A stretch of 38,773 nt of DNA from positions 1 to 38,773 of IMG/VR virus record IMGVR_UViG_2671180896_000005; one strand, written 5' to 3'. The notes below the pieces were generated by a model, which saw only the letters and a list, made by a program, of their open reading frames with translations, did not search any database and was not told the DNA's origin. Within the stretch, counting starts at the first letter, position 1. Every line of letters starts with the position of its first letter. The stretch is from a virus (Duplodnaviria; Heunggongvirae; Uroviricota; Caudoviricetes). Below are positions 1 through 38,425 of the stretch, piece by piece. The translations under genes and the position numbers were made by a program.

Positions 1-1254
1 ATGCTGGAACAAATGGGCATTGCCGCGAAGCAAGCCTCGTATAAATTAGCGCAACTCTCCAGCCGCGAAAAAAATCGCGTGCTGGAAAAAATCGCCGATG
101 AACTGGAAGCACAAAGCGAAATCATCCTCAACGCTAACGCCCAGGATGTTGCTGACGCGCGTGCCAATGGCCTTGGCGAAGCGATGCTTGACCGTCTGGC
201 ACTGACGCCCGCACGGCTGAAAGGCATTGCCGATGATGTGCGCCAGGTGTGTAACCTCGCCGATCCGGTGGGGCAGGTAATCGATGGCAGCGTACTGGAC
301 AGCGGCCTGCGTCTTGAGCGTCGTCGCGTACCGCTGGGGGTTATTGGCGTGATTTATGAAGCGCGCCCGAACGTGACGGTTGATGTCGCTTCGCTGTGCC
401 TGAAAACCGGTAATGCGGTGATCCTGCGCGGTGGCAAAGAAACGTGTCGCACTAACGCTGCAACGGTGGCGGTGATTCAGGACGCCCTGAAATCCTGCGG
501 CTTACCGGCGGGTGCCGTGCAGGCGATTGATAATCCTGACCGTGCGCTGGTCAGTGAAATGCTGCGTATGGATAAATACATCGACATGCTGATCCCGCGT
601 GGTGGCGCTGGTTTGCATAAACTGTGCCGTGAACAGTCGACAATCCCGGTGATCACAGGTGGTATAGGCGTATGCCATATTTACTTTGATGAAAGTGTAG
701 AGATCGCTGAAGCATTAAAAGTGATCGTCAACGCGAAAACTCAGCGTCCGAGCACATGTAATACGGTTGAAACGTTGCTGGTGAATAAAAACATCGCCGA
801 TAGCTTCCTGCCCGCATTAAGCAAACAAATGGCGGAAAGCGGCGTGACATTACACGCAGATGCAGCTGCACTGGCGCAGTTGCAGGCAGGCCCTGCGAAG
901 GTGGTTGCTGTTAAAGCCGAAGAGTATGACGATGAGTTTCTGTCATTAGATTTGAACGTCAAAATCGTCAGCGATCTTGACGATGCCATCGCCCATATTC
1001 GTGAACACGGCACACAACACTCCGATGCGATCCTGACCCGCGATATGCGCAACGCCCAGCGTTTTGTTAACGAAGTGGATTCGTCCGCTGTTTACGTTAA
1101 CGCCTCTACGCGTTTTACCGACGGCGGCCAGTTTGGTCTGGGTGCGGAAGTGGCGGTAAGCACACAAAAACTCCACGCGCGTGGCCCAATGGGGCTGGAA
1201 GCACTGACCACTTACAAGTGGATCGGCATTGGTGATTACACCATTCGTGCGTAA
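1..1254 (+). CDS. proA: gamma-glutamyl phosphate reductase (complete, 417 aa)
   Basis: Full-length ORF from the window start; translation matches E. coli ProA as I recall it; GC and codon usage typical of core chromosome. Confidence 0.95.
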
Positions 1255-1368
1255 ATAAAACCGGGTGATGCAAAAGTAGCCATTTGATTCACAAGGCCAT
1301 TGACGCATCGCCCGGTTAGTTTTAACCTTGTCCACCGTGATTCACGTTCGTGAACATGTCCTTTCAGG

Positions 1369-1444
1369 GCCGATATAGCTCAGTTGGTAGAGCAGCGCAT
1401 TCGTAATGCGAAGGTCGTAGGTTCGACTCCTATTATCGGCACCA
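1369..1444 (+). tRNA. thrW: tRNA-Thr (anticodon CGU)
   Basis: 76-nt sequence GCCGATATAGCTCAGTTGGTAGAGCAGCGCATTCGTAATGCGAAGGTCGTAGGTTCGACTCCTATTATCGGCACCA with cloverleaf pairing (GCCGATA/TATCGGC acceptor stem), CGT anticodon and CCA end; integrase gene begins 15 bp downstream. Confidence 0.95.
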
Positions 1445-1458
1445 TTTAAATCAATAAG

Positions 1459-2622
1459 TTACACATCATTAGTACCTTCCTTATTTTTTGACTGGGACAA
1501 ATTTGGGACCGATGGGTTCAGAATCGAGTCTATTTGCCGTGCGTGTTCGGTAAGGTGATTAGGCGCGAGGTGAGCATATCGACGAACCATTTCGATAGAC
1601 TCCCATCCACCCATTTCCTGTAACACTGACAACGGGACTCCGGCTTGAACCAGCCAACTTGCCCAGGTGTGTCTCAAGTCGTGAAATCTGAAATCATCAA
1701 TACCAGCTCGTCTCAGCGCCGCTTTCCAGGCTGTGTTTGCGTCATACCGCATCTTCCTTACTGTTGGCGCTTTCGTTCCGTCTGGTTTGGTACAGCTTTC
1801 CTTATACACAAATACCCAACGGTGATGATTCCCTATTTGTTTTTTCAATACGCGACATGCAGTATCATTCAGCGCAACGCCAATTGCGCGGTTTGATTTA
1901 CTCTCTTCCGGGTTTATCCATGCCACCCGGCGCTGCATGTCTATTTGTTGCCATTCAAGGTTGATGATGTTTGAGCGTCTTAAACCTGTTGCCAGTGCAA
2001 ATTCAACAACAGACTTTAATGGCTCCGGACATTCATCAATCAGCCTTTGTGCTTCATGAGGCTCCAGCCAGCGGATCCGTTTATTCTTTGGTTGAGGCAC
2101 TTTAATAATTGGTGCCTTATCCAGCATTTTCCATTCACGCTCTGCGGCTCTTAGCAGGGCCTTTATAAATGAAAGATGCGTTGCCTTCGTTGCAACGGAC
2201 GCTGGTTTTGGCGTGTATTCTGGAACAGGTTTCCCTTTTTTTCTGCATGCTTCTGCCCTGAGTTTCCAGTTTTCCTCATGACGCCGGTTCGTCATTTTCT
2301 GAATTGCTGAATAAATTTTTGATTCAGTAATGTCTCTTAATTGCATCCCTGCGAAATGTTGAAGCCAGAATCCGATCCGGCTTTTGTCATCGTCCAGTGA
2401 TTTTTTATGTGCTTTCTCTTCAAGCCACCTGACACACGCTTCCTCGAACGTCATATCAGGTATTTCACCAAGTTTGCTGACCCGCCATGCTTCAGCCTTT
2501 AGCTTGTCATGGAGCTCTGTCGCCTGCCTTTTGTCCTTTGTTCCAAGAGACTGTTTAAATCTTTTACCGTTCGGCAATGTGAAACTGGCGTACCATATTT
2601 CACTTCTGCGGAAGAGTGACAT
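1459..2622 (-). CDS. int: phage tyrosine integrase
   Basis: 387-aa ORF with lambda-type integrase N-terminus ([33 protein letters not shown]) and C-terminal catalytic region ([10 protein letters not shown]...VRRYAHL); ATG at 2622 preceded by GAGGA. Confidence 0.95.
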
Positions 2623-3146: not shown

Positions 3147-3365
3147 TCACAATCCCCATTGTTTGTTCTTAAGTTCGATCTCCTCCTGGCAACTTGCACA
3201 AGTCCGACAACCCTGAACGGCCAGGCGTCTTCGCTTATCTATGGGATCGCCACACTCACAACAATGAGTGGCAGATATAGCCTGGTGGTTCAGACGACGC
3301 ATTTTTATTGCTGTATTGCGCTGTAATTCTTCGATTTCTGATGCTGAATCAATGATGTCTGCCAT
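3147..3365 (-). CDS. TraR/DksA-family C4 zinc-finger protein
   Basis: 72-aa ORF with CxxC...CxxC spacing (CCECGDPIDKRRRLAVQGCRTCASC) typical of phage TraR/DksA-like proteins. Confidence 0.6.
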   Translation of the reverse strand: MADIIDSASEIEELQRNTAIKMRRLNHQAISATHCCECGDPIDKRRRLAVQGCRTCASCQEEIELKNKQWGL

Positions 3366-3463
3366 CTTTCATTAATCCCTGAATTGTTGGTTAATACGCT
3401 TGAGGGTGAATGCGAACAATAAAAAAGGAGCCTGTAGCTCCCTGATGATTTTGCTTTTCATGT

Positions 3464-3745
3464 TCATCGCTCCTTAAAGACGCCGTTTAACATGCCGATC
3501 GCCAGACTTAAATGAGTCGGTGTGAATCCCATCAGCGTTACCGTTTCGCGGTGCTTCTTCAGTACGCTACGGCAAATGTCATCGACGTTTTTATCCGGAA
3601 ACTGCTGTCTGGCTTTTTTGATTTCAGAATTAGCCTGACGGGCAATGCTGCGAAGGGCGTTTTCCTGCTGAGGTGTCACTGAACAAGCCCCATGTCGGCA
3701 AGCATAAGCACACAGAATATGAAGCCCGCTGCCAGAAAAATGCAT
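3464..3745 (-). CDS. hypothetical phage protein
   Basis: 93-aa ORF co-oriented with neighbouring early genes; start uncertain. Confidence 0.3.
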   Translation of the reverse strand: MHFSGSGLHILCAYACRHGACSVTPQQENALRSIARQANSEIKKARQQFPDKNVDDICRSVLKKHRETVTLMGFTPTHLSLAIGMLNGVFKER

Positions 3746-4097
3746 TCAGTGGTTGTCATACCTGGTCTCTCTCATCTGCTTCTGCTTTCGCCACCATCAT
3801 TTCCAGCTTTGTGAAAGGGATGTGGCTAACGTATGAAATTCTTCGTCTGTTTCTACTGGTAATGGCACAAACCTGACTCCAATTTGAGCGAGGCTATGTG
3901 CCATCTCGATACTCGTTCTTAACTCAACAGGAGATGCTTTGTGCATACAGCCCCCCGTTTATTATTTATCTCCTCAGCCAGCCGCTGTGCTTTCAGTGGA
4001 TTTCTGATAACAGAAAGGCCGGGAAATACCTAGCCTCGCTTTGTAACGGAGTAGATGAAAGTGATCGCGCCTACCCGGATATTATCGCGAGGATGCT

Positions 4098-4778
4098 TCA
4101 TCGCCATTGCTCCCCAAATACAAAACCAATTTCAGCCAGTGCCTCGTCCATTTTTTCGATGAACTCCGGCACCATCTCGTCAAAATTCGCCATGTACTTT
4201 TCATCCCGCTCAACCACGACATAATGCAGGCCTTCACGCTTCATGCGCGGGTCATAGTTGGCAAAGTACCAGGCATCTTTTCGCGTCACCCACATGCTGT
4301 ACTGCACCTGGGCCATGTAAGCCGACTTTATGGCCTCGAAACCACCGAGCCGGAACTTCATGAAATCCCGGGAGGTAAACGGGCATTTCAGCTCAAGGCC
4401 ATTGCCGTCACTGCATAAACCATCGGGAGAGCAGGCGGTGCGCATACTTTCGTCGCGATAGATGATCGGGGATTCAATAACATTCACGTCGGAAGTGAAC
4501 TCAAACAGGGTTCTGGCGTCGTTCTCGTACTGTTTTCCCCAGGCCAGCGCCTTAGCATTAACTTCCGGAGCCACACCGGTGCAAACCTCAGCCAGCAGGG
4601 TGTGGAAGTAGGACATTTTCATGTCAGGCCACTTCTTTCCTGAGCGGGGCTTTGCTATCACGTTGTGAACTTCTGAAGCGGTGATGACGCCGAGCCGTAA
4701 TTTGTGCCATGCATCATCCCCCTGTTCGACAGCTCTCACGTCGATCCCGGTACGCTGCAGGATAATGTCCGGTGTCAT
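4098..4778 (-). CDS. exo: lambda-type 5'-3' exonuclease (Red alpha)
   Basis: 226-aa translation ([31 protein letters not shown]...) near-identical to lambda Exo as I recall it; overlaps bet stop by 4 nt. Confidence 0.95.
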
Positions 4779-5560
4779 GCTGCCACCTTCTGCTCAGTGG
4801 CTTTCTGTTTCAGGAATCCAAGAGCTTTCACTGCTTCGGCTTGTGTCAGTTCTGACGATGCGCGAATGTCGCGGCGAAATATCTGGGAACAGAGCGGCAA
4901 TAAGTCGTCATCCCATGTTTTATCCAGGGCGATCAGCAGAGTGTTAATCTCCTGCATGGTTTCATCGTTAACCGGAGTGATGTCGCGTTCCGGCTGACGT
5001 TCCGCAGTGTATGCAGTATTTTCGACAATGCGCTCGGCTTCATCCTTGTCATAGATACCAGCAAATCCGAAGGCCAGACGGGCACACTGAATCATGGCTT
5101 TATGCCGTAACATCCGTTTGGGATGCGACTGCCACGGCCCCGTGATTTCTCTGCCTTCGCGAGTTTTGAATGGTTCGCGGCGGCATTCATCCATCCATTC
5201 GGTAACGCAGATCGGATGATTGCGGTCTTTGCGGTAAATCCGGCATGTACAGGATTCATTGTCCTGCTCAAAGTCCATGCCATCAAACTGCTGGTTTTCA
5301 TTGATGATGCGGGACCAGCCATCAACGCCCACCACCGGAACGATGCCGTTCTGCTTATCAGGGAAGGCGTAAATTTCTTTCGTCCACGGATTAAGGCCGT
5401 ACTGGTTGGCGACGATCAGCAATGCGATGAACTGCGCATCGCTGGCATCACCTTTAAATGCCGTCTGGCGAAGAGTGGTGATCAGTTCCTGTGGGTCGAC
5501 AGAATCCATGCCGACACGTTCAGCCAGCTTCCCAGCCAGCGTTGCGAGTGCTGTACTCAT
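4775..5560 (-). CDS. bet: lambda-type single-strand annealing protein (Red beta)
   Basis: 261-aa translation ([48 protein letters not shown]...) matching lambda Bet. Confidence 0.95.
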
Positions 5561-5565
5561 CCGTT

Positions 5566-5862
5566 TTATACCTCTGAATCAATATCAACCTGGTGGTGAG
5601 CAATGGTTTCAACCATGTACCGGATGTGTTCTGCCATGCGCTCCTGAAACTCAACATCGTCATCAAACGCACGGGTAATGGCTTTTTTGCTGACCCCGTG
5701 GCGTTGCAAATGATCGATGCATAGCGATTCAAACAGGTGCTGGGGCAGGCCTTTTTCCATGTCGTCTGCCAGTTCTGCCTCTTTCTCTTCACGGGCGATC
5801 TGCTGGTAGTGACGCGCCCAGCTCTGAGCCTCAAGACGATCCTGAATGTAATAAGCGTTCAT
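5566..5862 (-). CDS. gam: RecBCD inhibitor Gam (98-aa short form)
   Basis: Translation [39 protein letters not shown]... corresponds to the lambda GamS form; in-frame stop 18 codons upstream of the ATG. Confidence 0.9.
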
Positions 5863-5937
5863 GGCTGAACTCCTGAAAATGGCTGTGAAAATATCGCCCG
5901 CGAAATGCCAGGCTGATTAGGAAAACAGGAAAGGGGA

Positions 5938-6228
5938 TTAGTGATTCAGGCCGTTGCCTCGTCCGTCGAGAAAAACTTCCACGAGCAAATCACGGGTATA
6001 AGTGCGCTCGATGCCGCGATGCAGATATAGCCGTCCGCATAAATTAGCTGATGCAGTCCAGGTACCATCTTTGTGTTTGACCAGCATTCCTGGCATGACC
6101 GCACCGCGATTAACGGTCTGCGTTCCGTAATGTTGATGAACCATAAAAACTCCTGCCCGTAAGCTGGGCTGCTGAACATATAAAGACTTCTGCGCGTATT
6201 CAGGCGGTGGATGGCCGCCGGTTGTCAT
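5938..6228 (-). CDS. hypothetical protein (first gene left of the putative OL/PL region)
   Basis: ORF track gives 5938..6348 from a TTG; first ATG at 6228 has GAGG about 10 nt upstream, so the 96-aa version is preferred. No recognisable family. Confidence 0.4.
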   Translation of the reverse strand: MTTGGHPPPEYAQKSLYVQQPSLRAGVFMVHQHYGTQTVNRGAVMPGMLVKHKDGTWTASANLCGRLYLHRGIERTYTRDLLVEVFLDGRGNGLNH

Positions 6229-6359
6229 AACTAAGCCGCCTCGTTGAAGCGACTGAGGTATGAAGTGTTGAGTTGATTTCAGCTGGTCACACCGACGTTC
6301 ACGCGTCCGCTTCACCCCTCGCACTTCCCGAAGCCTGCTGAAATTCAAGCTGCGGATCT

Positions 6360-6520
6360 AAGCGGTCATCGCAACGGTGAATCAGGTGGTTGCCGTATCG
6401 TTGTGTTGTTGCGATGAAATTATTTAAAACTATAGTTGTTTTATCGTCAACAACAAAAGTTGTTTTATTGGTTGTTTTAGATGTAACTGGTTGTATTTAG
6501 GATGGATTTATTTTGTGACT
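6360..6520. promoter_or_regulatory. candidate OL/PL region: cluster of GTTGTT/AACAAC operator-like repeats
   Basis: AT-rich intergenic DNA with repeated TGGTTGT(T) and AACAAC motifs and a 9-bp inverted repeat CATCGCAAC (6367-6375) / GTTGCGATG (6408-6416); same half-site as the palindrome between cI and cro. Confidence 0.35.
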
Positions 6521-6590
6521 TGCATCGCATAGCGATAACTGAAGGGAGATTGTGGTGGTTTTTTGAACGGTATACGTGATGAGGGGAGGG

Positions 6591-6620
6591 GATAAAAGAA
6601 AACCCGGCACGGTGGCCGGG
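6591..6620 (-). terminator. rho-independent terminator ending the cI-kinase-phosphatase transcription unit
   Basis: On the minus strand: 6-bp GC stem (CCCGGC/GCCGGG, 6603-6608/6615-6620) followed by TTTTCTTTTATC (rc of 6591-6602); lies 4 nt past the phosphatase stop codon. Confidence 0.55.
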
Positions 6621-6624
6621 AAGT

Positions 6625-7368
6625 TTACAAATACTTTACATTTACCGCTATAAGAGAATAATCGTCAGTCGGGCCTTTTGTCTCTATTCTTCGCATTAGG
6701 CTGGAGGCAAACCTTGATGCGGTTGACAATGTACGGTAAGAAAATCGTGGGCGTTGCTCCCAAAAGGTATGCGCGCCATCAGACATGATGAATAGAGATA
6801 GAACACCATCGTCAAGAGGAAGTTCATCTTTATCAATATTTATGACTTGATGTTGAAGAGGGATCTTGGCAGCAAGTGCAGTTGTAATAATATTTTTACC
6901 TTTTGCATTTTTGAGCTGTCGAGCTGTATAAATACCGCTATCTATCAACATTTGATGTTGAGTATGATCTGTTGTTAATTGGATTAGCTTATTTCCATTT
7001 TTTAAATAAACACGACAGTCACCTACATGTATAATTGTTAGACCTTGATTGTGAAGTAGGCACATTGTTAAAGTTGTAGCAGCAGATGCTAATTCTTTAT
7101 CAACTGACGAAAGAGATGCCACCTTTTCTTGTAGGGTCTTAAGTAAGGATAAGACATTGTCTTCATGAGTGAAGCTGTCTTTAATACTATACAAATGATT
7201 TATTACTGCTGCAGATGCTTCTTTTCCTCCTTTATAACCACCAACCCCATCAGCTATAGCCATAAGATAACCATTTGGTGTTTGAAGTGGATAAAGCACG
7301 CTATCTTGATTTTCCCTGCCATTATGTTTTGGTACAGAAAATATGGATGATGAGAGTATGCTAATCAT
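6625..7368 (-). CDS. PP2C-family (PPM) Ser/Thr protein phosphatase
   Basis: 247-aa ORF with PPM motifs: ENQDS, ADGVGG (metal-binding DGxGG), HVGDCR, LTTDH, SDGA; AT-rich; start overlaps kinase stop (ATGA). Confidence 0.85.
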   Translation of the reverse strand: MISILSSSIFSVPKHNGRENQDSVLYPLQTPNGYLMAIADGVGGYKGGKEASAAVINHLYSIKDSFTHEDNVLSLLKTLQEKVASLSSVDKELASAATTLTMCLLHNQGLTIIHVGDCRVYLKNGNKLIQLTTDHTQHQMLIDSGIYTARQLKNAKGKNIITTALAAKIPLQHQVINIDKDELPLDDGVLSLFIMSDGAHTFWEQRPRFSYRTLSTASRFASSLMRRIETKGPTDDYSLIAVNVKYL

Positions 7369-8090
7369 AAGCGTTTCAACTCCAATTCCTCAAAGATCTG
7401 CTCTACGGTCAGGAATCTTTTGTTAAGTTGTCTATGCGTACATTTGTTTATTATATCATCAAAACCATCAATATTTAATTCTTCAATTAAAATACCAATT
7501 GAATATATATCTGATTGTTTTGAATATCCGTTGAGGAAAACGTTGTAATCAAAGTATTTAGGAGTAGCGGGGTATTGGCCAATTTGTGTTAATAGCTGTG
7601 TATTGGCATCTGGTGACACATTTTTTGCAAGGCCGAAGTCAGATAACTTATAAATTCCATCTTCAAATTTTAGTACATTTAGTGGTTTTATATCCCGATG
7701 AAGATATCCTTTCTTATGAATCCATCCGACGGCATTTAGTACCATTTTTACAATAGAGATTTTTTCAGCCTTTGTAAGAGTTCCACTTTTTATTTCTTCT
7801 TCAAGATTTGTTTCTGCTAGTTCCATTACGAACCAAGGCTGAGCATTCTGTAAGTGGCATATGAATATTTGGACAATATTAGTATGCAGGCATTCAGTTT
7901 GATATCTTACTTCTCGTTCAAATCTGGTAAAGAGTTCAGGATCTGTTGCATCAGGTCGTAAAATTTTTCTGGCATATAGACCACAAATTTTTCTTTGTGA
8001 GTTATATAACCTTATTTTTTCTACAAGGCCAAAACCGCCAGAACCAATTACTTCTAGGGGGTCTATTAGGTAATTCCCACGTTCTTCCAT
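7365..8090 (-). CDS. Hanks-type (eukaryotic-like) Ser/Thr protein kinase, compact single-domain
   Basis: 241-aa ORF with glycine loop IGSGGFGLV, catalytic-loop HRDIKPLN, DFG motif (SDFGLAK) and a subdomain-IX-like DIYSIG; RBS GGAT before the ATG; markedly AT-rich versus flanking phage genes. Confidence 0.9.
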   Translation of the reverse strand: MEERGNYLIDPLEVIGSGGFGLVEKIRLYNSQRKICGLYARKILRPDATDPELFTRFEREVRYQTECLHTNIVQIFICHLQNAQPWFVMELAETNLEEEIKSGTLTKAEKISIVKMVLNAVGWIHKKGYLHRDIKPLNVLKFEDGIYKLSDFGLAKNVSPDANTQLLTQIGQYPATPKYFDYNVFLNGYSKQSDIYSIGILIEELNIDGFDDIINKCTHRQLNKRFLTVEQIFEELELKRL

Positions 8091-8185
8091 TGTTCATCCT
8101 TTTAAGTTAGACAAAAGGAAAAATATAATGCAATGTTATCGATGCTTTTTTGAAGCCAAAGTTAACTTGTTGAATTTATGTCGAA

Positions 8186-8875
8186 TTATCCATGCTTCCT
8201 ATACGTCTGCGGCATGCTCCCGATGACTTTCCCGAAGATGAATACCCGGTTCATCTCGTCTTTCTCGATTGGGTCCCACGGTGAGTAGCTCTTGTTATCA
8301 GAGATAACCAGCAGTTTATCCTTCATCATTTGCAGGCGCTTTACATGGGCTGTGTCGTCGTACAGAAACGCATAGATACCATCACCGTCGAAAGATTTAA
8401 CAGTGATATCAACGAACAGCAGATCACCTGGTTCGATCGTTCCTGACATGCTGTCACCGCGTACGTTAATGATACGGATATTTTCCGCCTTCCTGCCATC
8501 GAACATGTGACGAGCATCGTCAAACGAATACTCAACCGAACGTAGAACTTCTACAAACTCACGGTTGATGACTCCCGGCCCGGCACTCACTTCGATATCA
8601 AGAACGTCAATCTTAAAGTATTTGGAATGGCTGACAGTTGTTTGTATTGGTTGCACTGTACTGTCTGACATATTTCCAACGCCAGAAGATAACCATTCTG
8701 CGCGCACACCCAAAGCGTTCGCGATCTCCACGATTTTAGTTGTTTGGTTAGCTTTCCCTGTTTCGATTTTCTGAATAGCTGCTTGGCTAACCCCGACCAA
8801 ATCCCCAAGCGCCTTTTGTGTAAGGCCTCGCGCTAATCTGGCTTCTTTAAGTCTTTCTGAGAGTGTTGTTTTCAT
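8186..8875 (-). CDS. cI: CI-like prophage repressor (HTH + S24 LexA-like peptidase domain)
   Basis: N-terminal HTH (MKTTLSERLKEARLARGLTQKALGDLVGVSQAAIQKIETGK) and C-terminal S24 autopeptidase motifs (GDSMSG ... FGKVIG). ATG at 8875 preferred over the track start at 8941, which would run into the operator region. Confidence 0.85.
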   Translation of the reverse strand: MKTTLSERLKEARLARGLTQKALGDLVGVSQAAIQKIETGKANQTTKIVEIANALGVRAEWLSSGVGNMSDSTVQPIQTTVSHSKYFKIDVLDIEVSAGPGVINREFVEVLRSVEYSFDDARHMFDGRKAENIRIINVRGDSMSGTIEPGDLLFVDITVKSFDGDGIYAFLYDDTAHVKRLQMMKDKLLVISDNKSYSPWDPIEKDEMNRVFIFGKVIGSMPQTYRKHG

Positions 8876-8916
8876 AGTCCAAATGTACAACCAAGGTTTT
8901 ATTTCATCAAACGAAA

Positions 8917-8941
8917 ATGGTTGTTGACTAAAAACAACCAT
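8917..8941. promoter_or_regulatory. operator palindrome in the cI-cro intergenic region
   Basis: Perfect 9-bp inverted repeat ATGGTTGTT (8917-8925) / AACAACCAT (8933-8941) with 7-bp spacer, overlapping the candidate PR -35. Confidence 0.55.
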
Positions 8942-8952
8942 AGTTTTAATCT
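8924..8952 (+). promoter_or_regulatory. candidate rightward early promoter (PR-like)
   Basis: TTGACT (8924-8929), 17-bp spacer, TAATCT (8947-8952), about 28 bp upstream of the cro-like ATG. Confidence 0.45.
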
Positions 8953-8979
8953 TGATTCAAATTAACCACGGAGGTTGTT

Positions 8980-9210
8980 ATGAACCCAGCCATCAAAACA
9001 GCGATCAATATCGTTGGTTCACAAAAGAAACTAGGCGCTGCCTGCGAAGTTTCACAGCAGGCCGTCTATAAGTGGCTTCACAACAAAGCAAAGGTATCCC
9101 CTGAACATGTCGGCAGCATTGTTACGGCTACTGGTGGAGTAGTGAAGGCATACCAGATTCGCCCGGATCTTCCGAAGTTGTTTCCACACACTGAAAAGAA
9201 CGCAGCTTAA
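8980..9210 (+). CDS. Cro-like HTH regulator
   Basis: 76-aa ORF divergent from cI across the operator region; GGAGG RBS; HTH-like segment (QKKLGAACEVSQQAVYKWL). Confidence 0.6.
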   Translation: MNPAIKTAINIVGSQKKLGAACEVSQQAVYKWLHNKAKVSPEHVGSIVTATGGVVKAYQIRPDLPKLFPHTEKNAA

Positions 9211-9279
9211 ATTTCCATTTCACGCTCTTTAACAATAAGCAATCAACTTAACAGTCAATTCAAACTAAAGGAGTCAATT

Positions 9280-37412: not shown

Positions 37413-38015
37413 ATGAATAACGCAGAATTAAACAGTGAATTAATTGCCACTATGGCAGGAGAAATTACTGTTTATAACTTTGATGTCATGAGTCGGGAAT
37501 ATATTTCAGCTTCAACTGAATATCTTGCTATTGGTGTCGGCATTCCGGCATATTCCTGTTTAGATGCCCCAGGCGCATACAAAGCTGGTTATGCAATCTG
37601 CCGATCTGCAGATTTTAACTCATGGGAATATGTGCCAGACCATCGCGGTGAAATCGTCTTTAGCACCGAAACAGGAGAATCAAAAGAAATCACAGTTCCG
37701 GGTGATTACCCTGATAATACAACCACTATCGCCCCGTTAACGCCATACGATAAATGGGATGGTGAGAAATGGGTGGCGGATACCGAAGCACAGCATAGCG
37801 CCGCAGTAGATGCAGCAGAAGCACAGCGCCAGTCACTGATTGATGCTGCAATGGCTTCCATTAGTCTGATTCAGCTGAAATTACAGGCCGGACGGAAGTT
37901 GACGCAGGCAGAAACCACCCGACTTAACGCCGTGTTGGATTACATTGACGCGGTGACGGCAACAGATACCAGCACAGCGCCGGATGTCATCTGGCCTGAA
38001 CTGCCGGAGGCGTAG
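37413..38015 (+). CDS. tail fibre assembly protein (Tfa)
   Basis: 200-aa ORF after the fibre gene with GAGGG RBS; conserved Tfa C-terminus (...LNAVLDYIDAVTATDTSTAPDVIWPELPEA). Confidence 0.8.
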   Translation: MNNAELNSELIATMAGEITVYNFDVMSREYISASTEYLAIGVGIPAYSCLDAPGAYKAGYAICRSADFNSWEYVPDHRGEIVFSTETGESKEITVPGDYPDNTTTIAPLTPYDKWDGEKWVADTEAQHSAAVDAAEAQRQSLIDAAMASISLIQLKLQAGRKLTQAETTRLNAVLDYIDAVTATDTSTAPDVIWPELPEA

Positions 38016-38424
38016 GCCATTCAATATCTGGCGCACCGGAAGTATCGATCAGCTCCAGTGCGTCCAGATAATCCAGCCACAAATTATATTGCGCCAGTTC
38101 CTCACCTTTCAGACGACCAATAGCGGCTTTACCGGGCCATTGTTTACTGTTCATGTATTCGTTGGCCTGATTAAGCAATAATTGCCTTTCTGATTCTGCC
38201 TGTTGAATAAGTTCTTCATATGATGGTGGAGGTATTAGTGCCCATGTGGGTAATCCATTTTTTCCTGCAACACGAATTTTGTCATCTGGGGGCGTATTGA
38301 TTGCAAATTCATTATAAACATCATCACTGACAGCCAGAGCATCATCTGGCCATGAATTTGCATTAATGTAATCATCCTTAAGCGCAGGATTCACAAAAAT
38401 GTTTAAAGATGGACTATAAAACAT
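37987..38424 (-). CDS. alternative tail fibre assembly protein (Tfa')
   Basis: 145-aa ORF convergent on Tfa, overlapping its 3' end; shares the Tfa C-terminal motif (...YNLWLDYLDALELIDTSGAPDIEWPTPP). Confidence 0.8.
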   Translation of the reverse strand: MFYSPSLNIFVNPALKDDYINANSWPDDALAVSDDVYNEFAINTPPDDKIRVAGKNGLPTWALIPPPSYEELIQQAESERQLLLNQANEYMNSKQWPGKAAIGRLKGEELAQYNLWLDYLDALELIDTSGAPDIEWPTPPAVQAR

Positions 38425-38425
38425 A

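What the first reader, a model, noticed from the sequence alone, without database searches (positions are those of the whole stretch)
6591..8185. AT-rich Ser/Thr kinase + PP2C phosphatase gene pair downstream of cI, in the rexAB position: candidate kinase-based phage-exclusion module
Seen in sequence: two translationally coupled genes (kinase stop and phosphatase start overlap as ATGA) lie directly downstream of the CI-like repressor on the same strand and end at a clean rho-independent terminator (6591-6620). The kinase (241 aa) is a minimal Hanks-type catalytic domain with no sensor or membrane domains. The phosphatase (247 aa) has PPM/PP2C metal-binding motifs. Both genes are clearly more AT-rich than the flanking phage genes, indicating recent acquisition. 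Established knowledge: the slot downstream of cI, expressed in lysogens, is where lambda carries rexAB, and a eukaryotic-like kinase in this slot has been reported for a lambdoid prophage (Stk of 933W) as an abortive-infection trigger. Inference: the kinase is the effector activated by an infecting phage and the co-transcribed phosphatase restrains or resets it, in an antitoxin-like role. I do not recognise this specific kinase-phosphatase pairing as a named system.
Basis: partly seen in the sequence, partly recalled or inferred. Interest (0 to 1): 0.85.

Follow-up and report, generated by a model that had tools for sequence, protein, structure and literature searches.

The report
Prophage kinase–phosphatase pair beside the repressor
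A rare two-gene cassette, a minimal Ser/Thr kinase plus its PP2C phosphatase, sits directly after the repressor gene of an E. coli lambda-like prophage; its relatives travel as a unit through phage cargo slots and defence islands, so it is probably an untested variant of known kinase-based anti-phage systems.

Summary
A 241-aa Hanks-type kinase (7365-8090, -) and a 247-aa PP2C phosphatase (6625-7368, -) overlap by ATGA. They follow cI with no terminator in between, end at an intrinsic terminator (6593-6620), and have 34-37% GC against about 48% in the flanks.

The swapped cassette is exactly 6621-8185. The same cI and terminator carry a different cargo (PADLOC candidate PDC-S42) in other E. 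coli prophages. Only 15 of 5,426 complete E. coli genomes hold the pair.

The kinase→PP2C pair is a compact, co-inherited family. All 14 pairs measured keep the same gene order, and the kinase and phosphatase identity matrices correlate (r=0.81). It occurs behind four further repressor types, in late-region cargo slots, in P4-like satellites next to PD-Lambda-1, and in islands next to Gabija and Thoeris-like genes. All catalytic residues are invariant.

The best reading is a defence or abortive-infection module in which the phosphatase restrains the kinase. This is inferred, not shown. It works like KKP (Guo 2024) and like 933W Stk, but it fails the membership tests for both.

The parts
7365..8090 (-). 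Minimal Hanks-type Ser/Thr protein kinase, 241 aa, with no accessory domain. Motifs: G-loop G16-G21, K42, E60, H131-R132-D133-I-K135-P-x-N138, D151-F152-G153.
   Evidence: Pfam Pkinase 2.7e-32. The catalytic residues are invariant in a 38-sequence family alignment. AF2 gives pLDDT 90.9, with only the activation loop at 160-180 of low confidence. Foldseek TM is about 0.8 to PknB and FGFR2. PADLOC gives mad6 2.4e-39, PD-T4-6 3.2e-34 and Stk2 2.5e-27, all over the kinase domain only.
6625..7368 (-). PPM/PP2C Ser/Thr phosphatase, 247 aa, catalytic domain only. Metal-binding residues: D22, D40-G41, D117, D197-G198, D235-D236.
   Evidence: Pfam PP2C_2 4.8e-12 and PP2C 1.1e-7. NCBIfam Stp1/IreP PP2C 1.2e-31 over 9-231 of 232 profile positions, below the equivalog cut-off. 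The metal-binding Asp residues are invariant in 43 sequences. AF2 pLDDT 92.3. Foldseek TM 0.72-0.83 to PstP, Stp1 and tPphA.
7365..7368 (-). ATGA overlap of the kinase stop and the phosphatase start (translational coupling)
   Evidence: Sequence. The junction gap is -13 to +3 nt in all 14 homologous pairs, and 8 of them have the same ATGA overlap.
6621..8185 (-). The exchanged cargo cassette (1,565 bp): spacer, kinase, phosphatase
   Evidence: Homology to a prophage with the same cI but another cargo stops at 6620/6621 and at the cI stop codon, 8186. The same cassette, at 99.6% identity, lies behind a different cI allele in strain TUM14771.
6593..6620 (-). Intrinsic terminator closing the cI-kinase-phosphatase transcription unit (tIMM/tRM equivalent). 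It is part of the phage backbone.
   Evidence: Terminator scan and fold of -11.8 kcal/mol. It is conserved with the alternative cargo. The analogous tRM is annotated after stk in phage 24B.
8091..8185 (-). 95-nt cI-kinase spacer with a Shine-Dalgarno sequence (AAGGA) 7 nt before the kinase ATG. No terminator or consensus promoter was detected.
   Evidence: Sequence and scan.
8186..8875 (-). CI-like repressor (HTH_3 + Peptidase_S24), the first gene of the presumed operon
   Evidence: Pfam. RefSeq annotation WP_042107501.1.
6424..6468 (.). oL-like operator repeats with a pL-like promoter, downstream of the terminator
   Evidence: Inverted copies of 8906-8949 (19 nt, 95% complementary) and an internal direct repeat with 24-nt spacing.
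8906..8949 (.). oR-like operators between cI and the cro-like gene (8980-9210, +)
   Evidence: Inverted repeats with 6424-6468. A 9-bp-arm palindrome lies at 8917-8941.

Best explanation
This is a mobile two-gene cargo cassette carried by temperate phages. It encodes an active minimal Ser/Thr kinase and its cognate PP2C phosphatase. Here it is inserted in the immunity operon, so it is transcribed with cI in the lysogen.

Most likely it is a phage-defence (exclusion or abortive-infection) module of the KKP/Stk kind. In uninfected lysogens the co-translated phosphatase keeps the kinase, through its activation loop, and/or the kinase's substrates dephosphorylated. An infecting phage tips the balance, either by inhibiting the phosphatase or by directly activating the kinase. 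The kinase then phosphorylates essential host or phage proteins, and the infection is aborted.

Shown: gene structure, intact catalytic sites, the cassette borders, co-inheritance of the two genes, and their genomic company. Inferred: co-transcription from pRM, kinase toxicity, the restraining role of the phosphatase, the trigger and the targets.
For: (1) Anatomy. cI, a 95-nt spacer, the kinase, an ATGA overlap, the PP2C and a terminator lie in that order, all inside oL..oR.

(2) Both enzymes look active. All kinase and PP2C catalytic residues are invariant across the family, the AF2 models are confident, and the nearest solved relatives are the cognate pairs PknB/PstP and Stk1/Stp1.

(3) The two genes form a unit. 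In 14 of 14 lineages measured the order is kinase then PP2C with a gap of -13 to +3 nt. The kinase and PP2C identity matrices correlate (r=0.81, Mantel p=2e-4). Every look-up started from a phosphatase found a kinase directly upstream.

(4) The slot is a cargo hotspot. The swap borders are exact, the alternative cargo with the identical cI is PADLOC candidate PDC-S42 at 3.2e-86, and the same cassette lies behind a second cI allele.

(5) Divergent pairs (57-86% kinase identity where measured) independently occupy the repressor-downstream slot behind three other repressor types.

(6) Company elsewhere:
- P4-like satellites, next to PD-Lambda-1 at 5.8e-85.
- A Yersinia island where the neighbouring cassette alternates between a ThsB-like TIR plus PDC-S60 and PDC-M38A/B.
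- A Pseudomonas koreensis island, next to complete Gabija (GajA 2.5e-208, GajB 2.2e-172).

(7) Defence HMMs hit the kinase: mad6, PD-T4-6 and Stk2.

(8) Precedents. The 933W-type Stk lies in the cI operon and is an HK97-triggered exclusion kinase (PMC3681748, PMC8008677). In KKP the kinases are the toxin, the PP2C is the antitoxin, and a phage protein inhibits the phosphatase (PMC11341870).
Against: There is no experimental data for any member, and none was found in the searchable literature.

The defence-HMM matches cover only the generic kinase domain, and the PP2C match to PDC-M21C is weak (8e-9).

Neither protein has a recognisable sensor domain.

Several relatives sit in late-operon slots, after the lysis genes or between Q and lysis, where expression in lysogens is not guaranteed. 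In Klebsiella prophages the pair lies within about 1 kb of an Acb2/Tad1-like anti-defence gene.

Four lineages lie in small chromosomal islets with no defence or mobile-element neighbours.

Co-transcription with cI is inferred only from the absence of a detectable terminator or promoter.
Confidence: 0.55

Rival explanations
1. Regulator of lysogeny or host physiology. The kinase/phosphatase balance phosphorylates host factors (for example nucleoid proteins) or phage regulators to tune prophage induction or host traits, as KKP does with MvaU. Defence is absent or secondary.
For: The pair sits in the cI operon. KKP has a documented lysogeny-control role through MvaU phosphorylation (PMC11341870). 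The chromosomal Stk/Stp pairs that are its nearest solved relatives are physiological regulators.
Against: The same cassette family works outside any immunity region: in late-gene slots, P4-like satellites, defence islands and bare chromosomal islets, and behind unrelated repressors. A phage-specific regulatory target is therefore unlikely. The slot is interchangeable with a defence-candidate gene.
Confidence: 0.15
2. Phage-benefit module used during lytic growth. The kinase rewires or disarms the host (counter-defence or takeover, like the T7 kinase) and the phosphatase limits self-damage or reverses host phosphorylation.
For: Relatives lie in late-operon cargo positions in Flotzy, phiES15, Serratia prophages and Klebsiella prophages. 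In Klebsiella the pair lies close to an Acb2/Tad1-like gene. T7 kinase disarms defences by pervasive phosphorylation (PMC13645617).
Against: In the window and in four other lineages the pair is in the repressor operon, which is expressed in lysogens and shut off on induction. The pair also occurs in non-phage defence islands and in satellites, next to Gabija, Thoeris-like genes and PD-Lambda-1. It has no similarity to the T7K family beyond the kinase fold.
Confidence: 0.12
3. Pure addiction (toxin-antitoxin) cassette that stabilises the mobile element, with no role against other phages.
For: The pair has opposing enzymatic activities, is strictly co-inherited and is translationally coupled. 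KKP behaves as a toxin-antitoxin system.
Against: An enzymatic antitoxin made in step with the toxin gives no obvious post-segregational killing. The pair sits at defence hotspots that exchange cassettes. Toxin-antitoxin and defence roles are not exclusive.
Confidence: 0.1

Closest known systems
KKP (PfkA/PfkB/PfpC) kinase-kinase-phosphatase module of Pf, P2, P4 and Mu-like prophages (Guo et al. 2024, PMC11341870)
   Same: It is prophage or satellite borne. It pairs Hanks-type Ser/Thr kinase(s) with a PP2C_2 (PF13672) phosphatase in one operon. The phosphatase acts as an enzymatic antitoxin, and defence is triggered when a phage protein inhibits the phosphatase. It is found in Gram-negative temperate elements.
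   Different: KKP is a triplet ordered PP2C, kinase, kinase, with genes of 900-1300 bp. Its two kinases are jointly required and carry C-terminal CSD and FHA domains that are essential for toxicity. Here there is one 241-aa kinase with no extra domain, and the order is kinase then PP2C.
Stk of 933W-type Stx phages (Friedman et al. 2011, as cited in PMC3681748 and PMC8008677)
   Same: It is a eukaryotic-like kinase in the cI/pRM operon, upstream of the immunity terminator of a lambdoid prophage. It is expressed in lysogens and causes abortive infection on HK97 superinfection.
   Different: Identity is only 26% over the kinase core. Stk is 348 aa with a C-terminal extension and has HFD instead of HRD. 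It is reported as a tyrosine kinase. There is no phosphatase in its operon, which instead holds DUF3024 and RuvC-like genes.
PD-T4-6 (Vassallo et al. 2022) and Stk2 (S. aureus) single-gene kinase defence systems; mad6 of MADS
   Same: The PADLOC HMMs of all three match the kinase domain strongly (3.2e-34, 2.5e-27, 2.4e-39). All are kinase-dependent defences.
   Different: The matches cover only the catalytic domain (for example 15-205 of 327, 129-352 of 500 and 54-249 of 659 profile positions). Those proteins are longer and multi-domain, and they work alone or within a multi-gene MADS locus. None has an obligate PP2C partner. No other mad genes are present here.
Chromosomal Stk1/Stp1, PknB/PstP, StkP/PhpP and PpkA/PppA kinase-phosphatase pairs
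   Same: These are the nearest solved structures and NCBIfam models for both proteins. In them the cognate PP2C dephosphorylates the kinase activation loop and the kinase's substrates (established knowledge).
   Different: Those kinases carry transmembrane and PASTA or other sensor domains, usually have the order phosphatase then kinase, and are core-genome regulators. This pair is cytoplasmic, minimal, AT-rich and mobile.
lambda rexAB
   Same: It has the same genomic slot and the same presumed transcription logic: downstream of cI, inside the immunity region, ending at the immunity terminator. It excludes superinfecting phage.
   Different: There is no sequence or mechanistic relationship. 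RexAB is a membrane-depolarising system.

Membership tests
Hanks-type (eukaryotic-like) protein kinases, PF00069 | Profile match above the curated cut-off, plus the G-loop, VAIK Lys, alpha-C Glu, HRDxKxxN catalytic loop and DFG | tested here: met
   112.6 bits against a cut-off of 31.7. G18, G21, K42, E60, H131, R132, D133, K135, N138 and D151-F152-G153 are invariant. The kinase fold has TM about 0.8. The Lys in HRDIKPxN and the P+1 Thr176 fit Ser/Thr rather than Tyr specificity (inference).
PPM/PP2C phosphatases, PF13672 and PF00481 | Profile match above the cut-off, plus the metal-binding Asp residues of motifs 1, 2, 8 and 11 | tested here: met
   46.3 bits against 24, and 32.2 against 20.3. 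D22, D40-G41, D197-G198 and D235-D236 are invariant. The fold has TM 0.72-0.83 to PstP, Stp1 and tPphA.
KKP (Guo et al. 2024) | Gene triplet ordered PP2C, kinase, kinase | tested here: not met
   There is one kinase, followed by the PP2C. cI lies upstream and a terminator downstream. The order is the same in 14 of 14 relatives.
KKP (Guo et al. 2024) | PfkA-like kinase fused to a CSD and PfkB-like kinase fused to an FHA domain, both required for toxicity | tested here: not met
   The 241-aa kinase has no domain other than Pkinase. The AF2 model is a single kinase domain.
KKP (Guo et al. 2024) | Kinase toxicity neutralised by the catalytic activity of the PP2C, and a defence phenotype | not testable with these tools
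   Needs expression and infection assays.
933W Stk exclusion kinase | Kinase gene in the cI/pRM transcription unit of a lambdoid prophage | tested here: met
   Window layout. 24B layout.
933W Stk exclusion kinase | Orthology to Stk (sequence and architecture) | tested here: not met
   26% identity over 218 residues, 348 aa against 241 aa, and HFD against HRD. tblastn gives 25.7% identity at E 3e-7.
PD-T4-6 (PADLOC) | Match to a PD-T4-6 HMM | tested here: inconclusive
   Best E-value is 3.2e-34, but only over the kinase core (15-205 of 327). The models also pick up housekeeping kinases: all S. thermophilus genomes examined are called PD-T4-6 (PMC11514479).
PD-T4-6 (PADLOC) | Single-gene system | tested here: not met
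   There is an obligate adjacent PP2C in every family member examined.
MADS (mad6 kinase) | Presence of the other mad genes (methyltransferase and the rest) in the locus | tested here: not met
   The locus holds only cI, the kinase and the PP2C. The NCBIfam MAD6 match is 66 bits against a cut-off of 460.
Type VII (enzymatic antitoxin) toxin-antitoxin systems | The antitoxin neutralises the toxin enzymatically and the toxin arrests growth | not testable with these tools
   Only consistent circumstantial evidence: strict pairing and coupling.

The most novel reading that the evidence does not exclude
The kinase→PP2C pair is a distinct, self-contained defence family, separate from KKP, Stk and PD-T4-6. 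It is a minimal two-enzyme guard circuit. The domain-less PP2C is the sensor, a target that incoming phage proteins inhibit. Its loss lets a sensor-less minimal kinase autophosphorylate and shut the cell down. The family has spread as a 1.5-kb cassette through at least four kinds of hotspot in Enterobacterales temperate phages and satellites.
Probability: 0.3. Interest if true: 0.65.

Novelty: new variant of a known kind. Interest (0 to 1): 0.55.

Why it matters
If confirmed, this would be the simplest phosphorylation-based anti-phage circuit known: one bare kinase domain and one bare PP2C domain in 1.5 kb. It offers a tractable model for how a kinase/phosphatase balance senses infection without dedicated sensor domains.

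It would also add a defined family to defence catalogues, which at present match only the kinase domain under other names. The family has about 25-30 clusters at 50% identity and is common in Klebsiella satellites and enterobacterial prophages.

Finally, it would document the cI-downstream (rexAB) slot of lambdoid phages as an exchangeable defence hotspot with base-pair-precise cassette borders.

Tried and rejected
(1) A genome-contig scan with the kinase alignment was wasted. The back-translated patterns were generic kinase motifs (HRDIKPxN, DFG), so only one of 80 loci (L005) belonged to the family. Neighbourhoods were obtained with the look-up of encoding contigs instead.

(2) I looked for a published two-gene kinase/PP2C defence system. 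Searches found only KKP, Stk, Stk2 and PD-T4-6. DefensePredictor, the domain-centric screen and the P2/P4 hotspot paper do not describe it.

(3) I considered that the 366-aa Yersinia homologue P0123 was a kinase-phosphatase fusion. It is a PP2C with an internal duplication and has no kinase similarity.

(4) I considered that the 'phage' records from Listeria, Enterococcus and Staphylococcus with both genes were phage relatives. They are unannotated contigs with about 30% identity and the order phosphatase then kinase, as in chromosomal Stp/Stk pairs. They were set aside.

(5) I tested membership of KKP, 933W Stk, MADS and PD-T4-6 and rejected each. See the membership test.

(6) An Rfam scan of the window found only a tRNA.

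(7) Using strain TB06053 as annotation for the whole window failed. It matches only 3170-11616, plus one displaced block.
Full report
**1.

Two ORFs lie on the minus strand: 7365..8090 (241 aa) and 6625..7368 (247 aa). They overlap by ATGA.

Pfam assigns the first to Pkinase (2.7e-32) and the second to PP2C_2 (4.8e-12) and PP2C (1.1e-7). All matches are above the curated cut-offs, and neither protein has any other domain.

Directly upstream on the same strand is a CI-type repressor with HTH_3 and Peptidase_S24 domains. RefSeq annotates it as 8186..8875. A 95-nt spacer follows, carrying a Shine-Dalgarno sequence. No terminator-like or consensus promoter-like site was detected there.

Directly downstream is an intrinsic terminator. 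It has a 6-bp all-G-C stem at 6620..6603, followed by TTTTCTTTT. The fold energy is -11.8 kcal/mol, z = -2.2.

GC falls to 0.32-0.37 over 6800-8200, against about 0.50 on both sides. By gene it is kinase 0.34 and PP2C 0.37, against 0.48 in the flanks.

Operator-like inverted repeats at 6424-6468 and 8906-8949 (19 nt, 95% complementary) bracket the region. The pair therefore lies between cI and oL/pL, which is where lambda has rexAB.

**2. It is a discrete, exchangeable cassette**

Only 15 of 5,426 complete E. coli genomes contain the whole stretch, at 99.4-99.9% identity. In all 15 both genes are annotated as intact. By contrast, 2,192 genomes match one or both flanks.

In prophages with the identical repressor protein (WP_042107501.1), the slot holds a single 313-aa gene instead. 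Alignment shows that homology stops exactly at the end of the terminator stem (6620/6621) and at the cI stop codon (8186). The acquired unit is therefore 6621-8185, and the terminator belongs to the backbone.

The alternative cargo matches the PADLOC defence candidate PDC-S42 at 3.2e-86.

In strain TUM14771 the same cassette, at 99.6% identity, follows a different cI allele. That prophage has a different integrase and a different neighbourhood.

**3. Both enzymes look active**

A 38-sequence kinase alignment keeps every catalytic element invariant:
- the G-loop (G18, G21)
- K42
- E60
- H131-R132-D133, K135 and N138
- D151-F152-G153
- D194 and R225

A 43-sequence PP2C alignment keeps the metal ligands invariant: D22, D40-G41, D117, D197-G198 and D235-D236.

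The AlphaFold2 models are confident, with pLDDT of 90.9 and 92.3. Only the kinase activation loop (about 160-180) has low confidence.

The kinase model is an ordinary bilobal kinase (TM about 0.8 to FGFR2 and PknB) with a short C-lobe tail. The phosphatase model superposes on PstP, Stp1 and tPphA (TM 0.72-0.83).

By sequence, the nearest solved chains are StkP and PknB for the kinase, and Stp1, PstP and PppA for the phosphatase. The best NCBIfam models are Stk1-family kinase and Stp1/IreP PP2C, both far below the equivalog cut-offs.

The pair is thus a stripped-down, domain-only version of the classical bacterial Stk/Stp couple. In that couple the PP2C is known to dephosphorylate the kinase activation loop and the kinase's substrates (established knowledge).

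**4. The pair is a family, and it travels as a unit**

A word-indexed search found about 54 clusters of 241-262-aa kinases at E of 1e-46 or better. These were followed by a sharp drop to generic kinases at 1e-27.

An exhaustive phmmer search over 1.84 billion representatives found 131 proteins at E of 1e-30 or better. Only about 25-30 of them are small single-domain proteins of this type. The rest are long multi-kinase-domain proteins.

Relatives of the phosphatase are numerous in Enterobacterales, Pseudomonas and related groups.

In all 14 lineages for which I extracted both genes, the order is kinase then PP2C on one strand. The junction gap is -13 to +3 nt, and 8 pairs have the same ATGA overlap. 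In 13 of 14, the pair is more AT-rich than its surroundings. The pairwise identity matrices of the two proteins are correlated (r = 0.81, Mantel p = 2e-4).

Look-ups started from phosphatases always found the kinase immediately upstream.

**5. Where the family lives**

(a) The repressor-downstream slot of other lambdoid prophages, behind different repressors:
- E. coli Rac-like elements with a 128-aa HTH repressor.
- Raoultella and related prophages with a CI-like HTH repressor.
- E. coli prophages with a 251-aa S24 repressor and a different replication module.

(b) Late-region cargo slots:
- After the lysis genes and before terminase, in phage Flotzy, in Serratia prophages and in several Klebsiella prophage backbones.
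- Between Q and the lysis genes, in Cronobacter phage phiES15.

(c) P4-like satellites of Klebsiella. These hold the most abundant variant, indexed in 885 blocks. The pair lies beside the primase, and in some elements it is adjacent to PD-Lambda-1 (5.8e-85). A primase-to-att defence hotspot in P4 has been described (PMC13586616).

(d) Defence islands:
- In Yersinia enterocolitica the neighbouring cassette alternates between a ThsB-like TIR (8e-55) plus PDC-S60 and PDC-M38A/B.
- In Pseudomonas koreensis the pair abuts a complete Gabija system and a transposase.

(e) Small chromosomal islets without obvious mobile or defence neighbours, in Pectobacterium, Xanthomonas (near ParE/Phd), Acinetobacter and one further gammaproteobacterium.

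That criterion is not met.

**6. Mechanism**

What is shown: an intact kinase and an intact PP2C are made from one translationally coupled message, inside a repressor operon. They are inherited together and keep company with defence genes.

What follows by analogy:
- In KKP, two prophage kinases are jointly toxic and phosphorylate many essential proteins. The PP2C PfpC neutralises them catalytically. A lytic-phage replication protein inhibits PfpC and so unleashes the kinases (PMC11341870).
- In 933W-type phages, the Stk kinase in the cI operon is silent until HK97 infects, and it then causes abortive infection (PMC3681748, PMC8008677; layout).

I therefore favour the following reading. The phosphatase holds the kinase and its substrates dephosphorylated in the lysogen. 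Infection shifts the balance, either by inhibiting the PP2C or by directly activating the kinase. Promiscuous Ser/Thr phosphorylation then aborts the infection. My confidence is about 0.55.

The catalytic-loop Lys (HRDIKPLN) and the conserved P+1 Thr176 argue for Ser/Thr rather than Tyr specificity. This is an inference.

**7. Rivals**

Three rival readings remain: a lysogeny or physiology regulator, a phage-benefit or counter-defence module, and a pure addiction cassette.

The main facts that keep them alive are these:
- Several relatives sit in late-operon positions.
- In Klebsiella prophages an Acb2/Tad1-like anti-defence gene lies within about 1 kb.
- KKP has a dual role in lysogeny control.

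Against a phage-specific regulatory role, the same cassette functions behind unrelated repressors and outside phages altogether. Against counter-defence, the pair sits in the lysogen-expressed immunity operon in five lineages, and it also sits in chromosomal defence islands.

**8. Comparison with known systems**

The module works like KKP and like Stk, but it is a member of neither.
- KKP is defined by the triplet PP2C, kinase, kinase, with CSD- and FHA-bearing kinases. Here there is one bare kinase, and the order is reversed.
- Stk of phage 24B (933W-type) is 348 aa, 26% identical, has HFD in place of HRD, and has no phosphatase partner.
- PADLOC's mad6, PD-T4-6 and Stk2 models hit only the catalytic core. 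The PD-T4-6 models are known to call housekeeping kinases as well.

I found no paper describing this two-gene family. I rate it a new variant of a known kind.

**9. Verdict**

The defence-module interpretation is well supported by comparative context, but it has not been shown experimentally.

It remains a clean, compact and experimentally attractive candidate. Interest is 0.55.

Noticed in passing
L002:3227-4168 (E. coli Z0117EC0117), the same slot as window 6621-8185: Prophages with the identical cI protein carry a single 313-aa gene in this slot. It has no Pfam domain but matches PADLOC candidate PDC-S42 at 3.2e-86. The cI-downstream slot therefore behaves as a defence-cargo hotspot with exact borders.
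   Followed up: partly
window 6145-6420: No N-like antiterminator ORF is visible between the pL/oL region and the kil-like gene (5938-6144), and RefSeq annotates none in the near-identical prophage. The Rfam gathering scan found no RNA family there. How leftward antitermination works in this phage is unclear.
   Followed up: partly
window 12024-14633: An AT-rich cargo block lies in the nin region: an outer-membrane beta-barrel protein (12024-12773, -), an SMR-family efflux protein (13145-13531, +; Multi_Drug_Res 3.4e-35) and a BD-FAE alpha/beta hydrolase (13590-14633, -). None hits PADLOC.
   Followed up: partly
window 1-2622: An aldehyde-dehydrogenase-family gene runs into the window start (1-1254). 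It is followed by tRNA-Thr(CGT) at 1369-1444 and a tyrosine integrase at 1459-2622 (-). This is the likely attachment site of the prophage.
   Followed up: partly
window 37413-38770: Two tail-fibre-assembly genes face each other (37413-38015 + and 37987-38424 -), next to an inverted tail-fibre C-terminal fragment (38426-38770 -). The layout suggests an invertible host-range segment.
   Followed up: no
window 3170-11616 compared with L111 (strain TB06053): The window matches the TB06053 prophage that carries the same cassette only across the early region (97.9%), plus one displaced 1.6-kb block. The late and structural genes differ completely (P22-like there, with a myovirus-like tail here). 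The immunity region with the cassette is shared between mosaic phages.
   Followed up: partly
L105:5261-5545 and L106:5261-5545 (Klebsiella prophages): An Acb2/Tad1-hairpin family gene (an anti-CBASS/anti-Thoeris sponge family) lies about 700 nt upstream of the kinase-PP2C pair, in the post-lysis cargo region.
   Followed up: no
L085:10051-12602 compared with L086:10100-11952 (Yersinia enterocolitica): Next to the kinase-PP2C pair, different strains carry either a ThsB-like TIR plus an nSTAND NTPase (PDC-S60) or PDC-M38A/B (AbiL-like). This is a cassette swap at a defence hotspot. The hotspot is flanked by a deaminase-toxin pair and a giant MuF/LPD protein.
   Followed up: partly
window 8876-8941: The longest cI ORF (251 aa, start at 8941) begins inside a 9-bp-arm operator palindrome (8917-8941). 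The real start is probably the ATG at 8875 (229 aa), as annotated in RefSeq.
   Followed up: partly
L110:2938-3984 (phage 24B stk): The 933W-type Stk has HFD instead of the canonical HRD catalytic triplet. It shares its operon with a DUF3024 gene and a RuvC-like resolvase, not with a phosphatase.
   Followed up: partly
P0123 (Yersinia enterocolitica, 366 aa): A PP2C homologue with an internal tandem duplication of about 120 residues. Segments 72-126 and 192-247 give identical local matches.
   Followed up: partly
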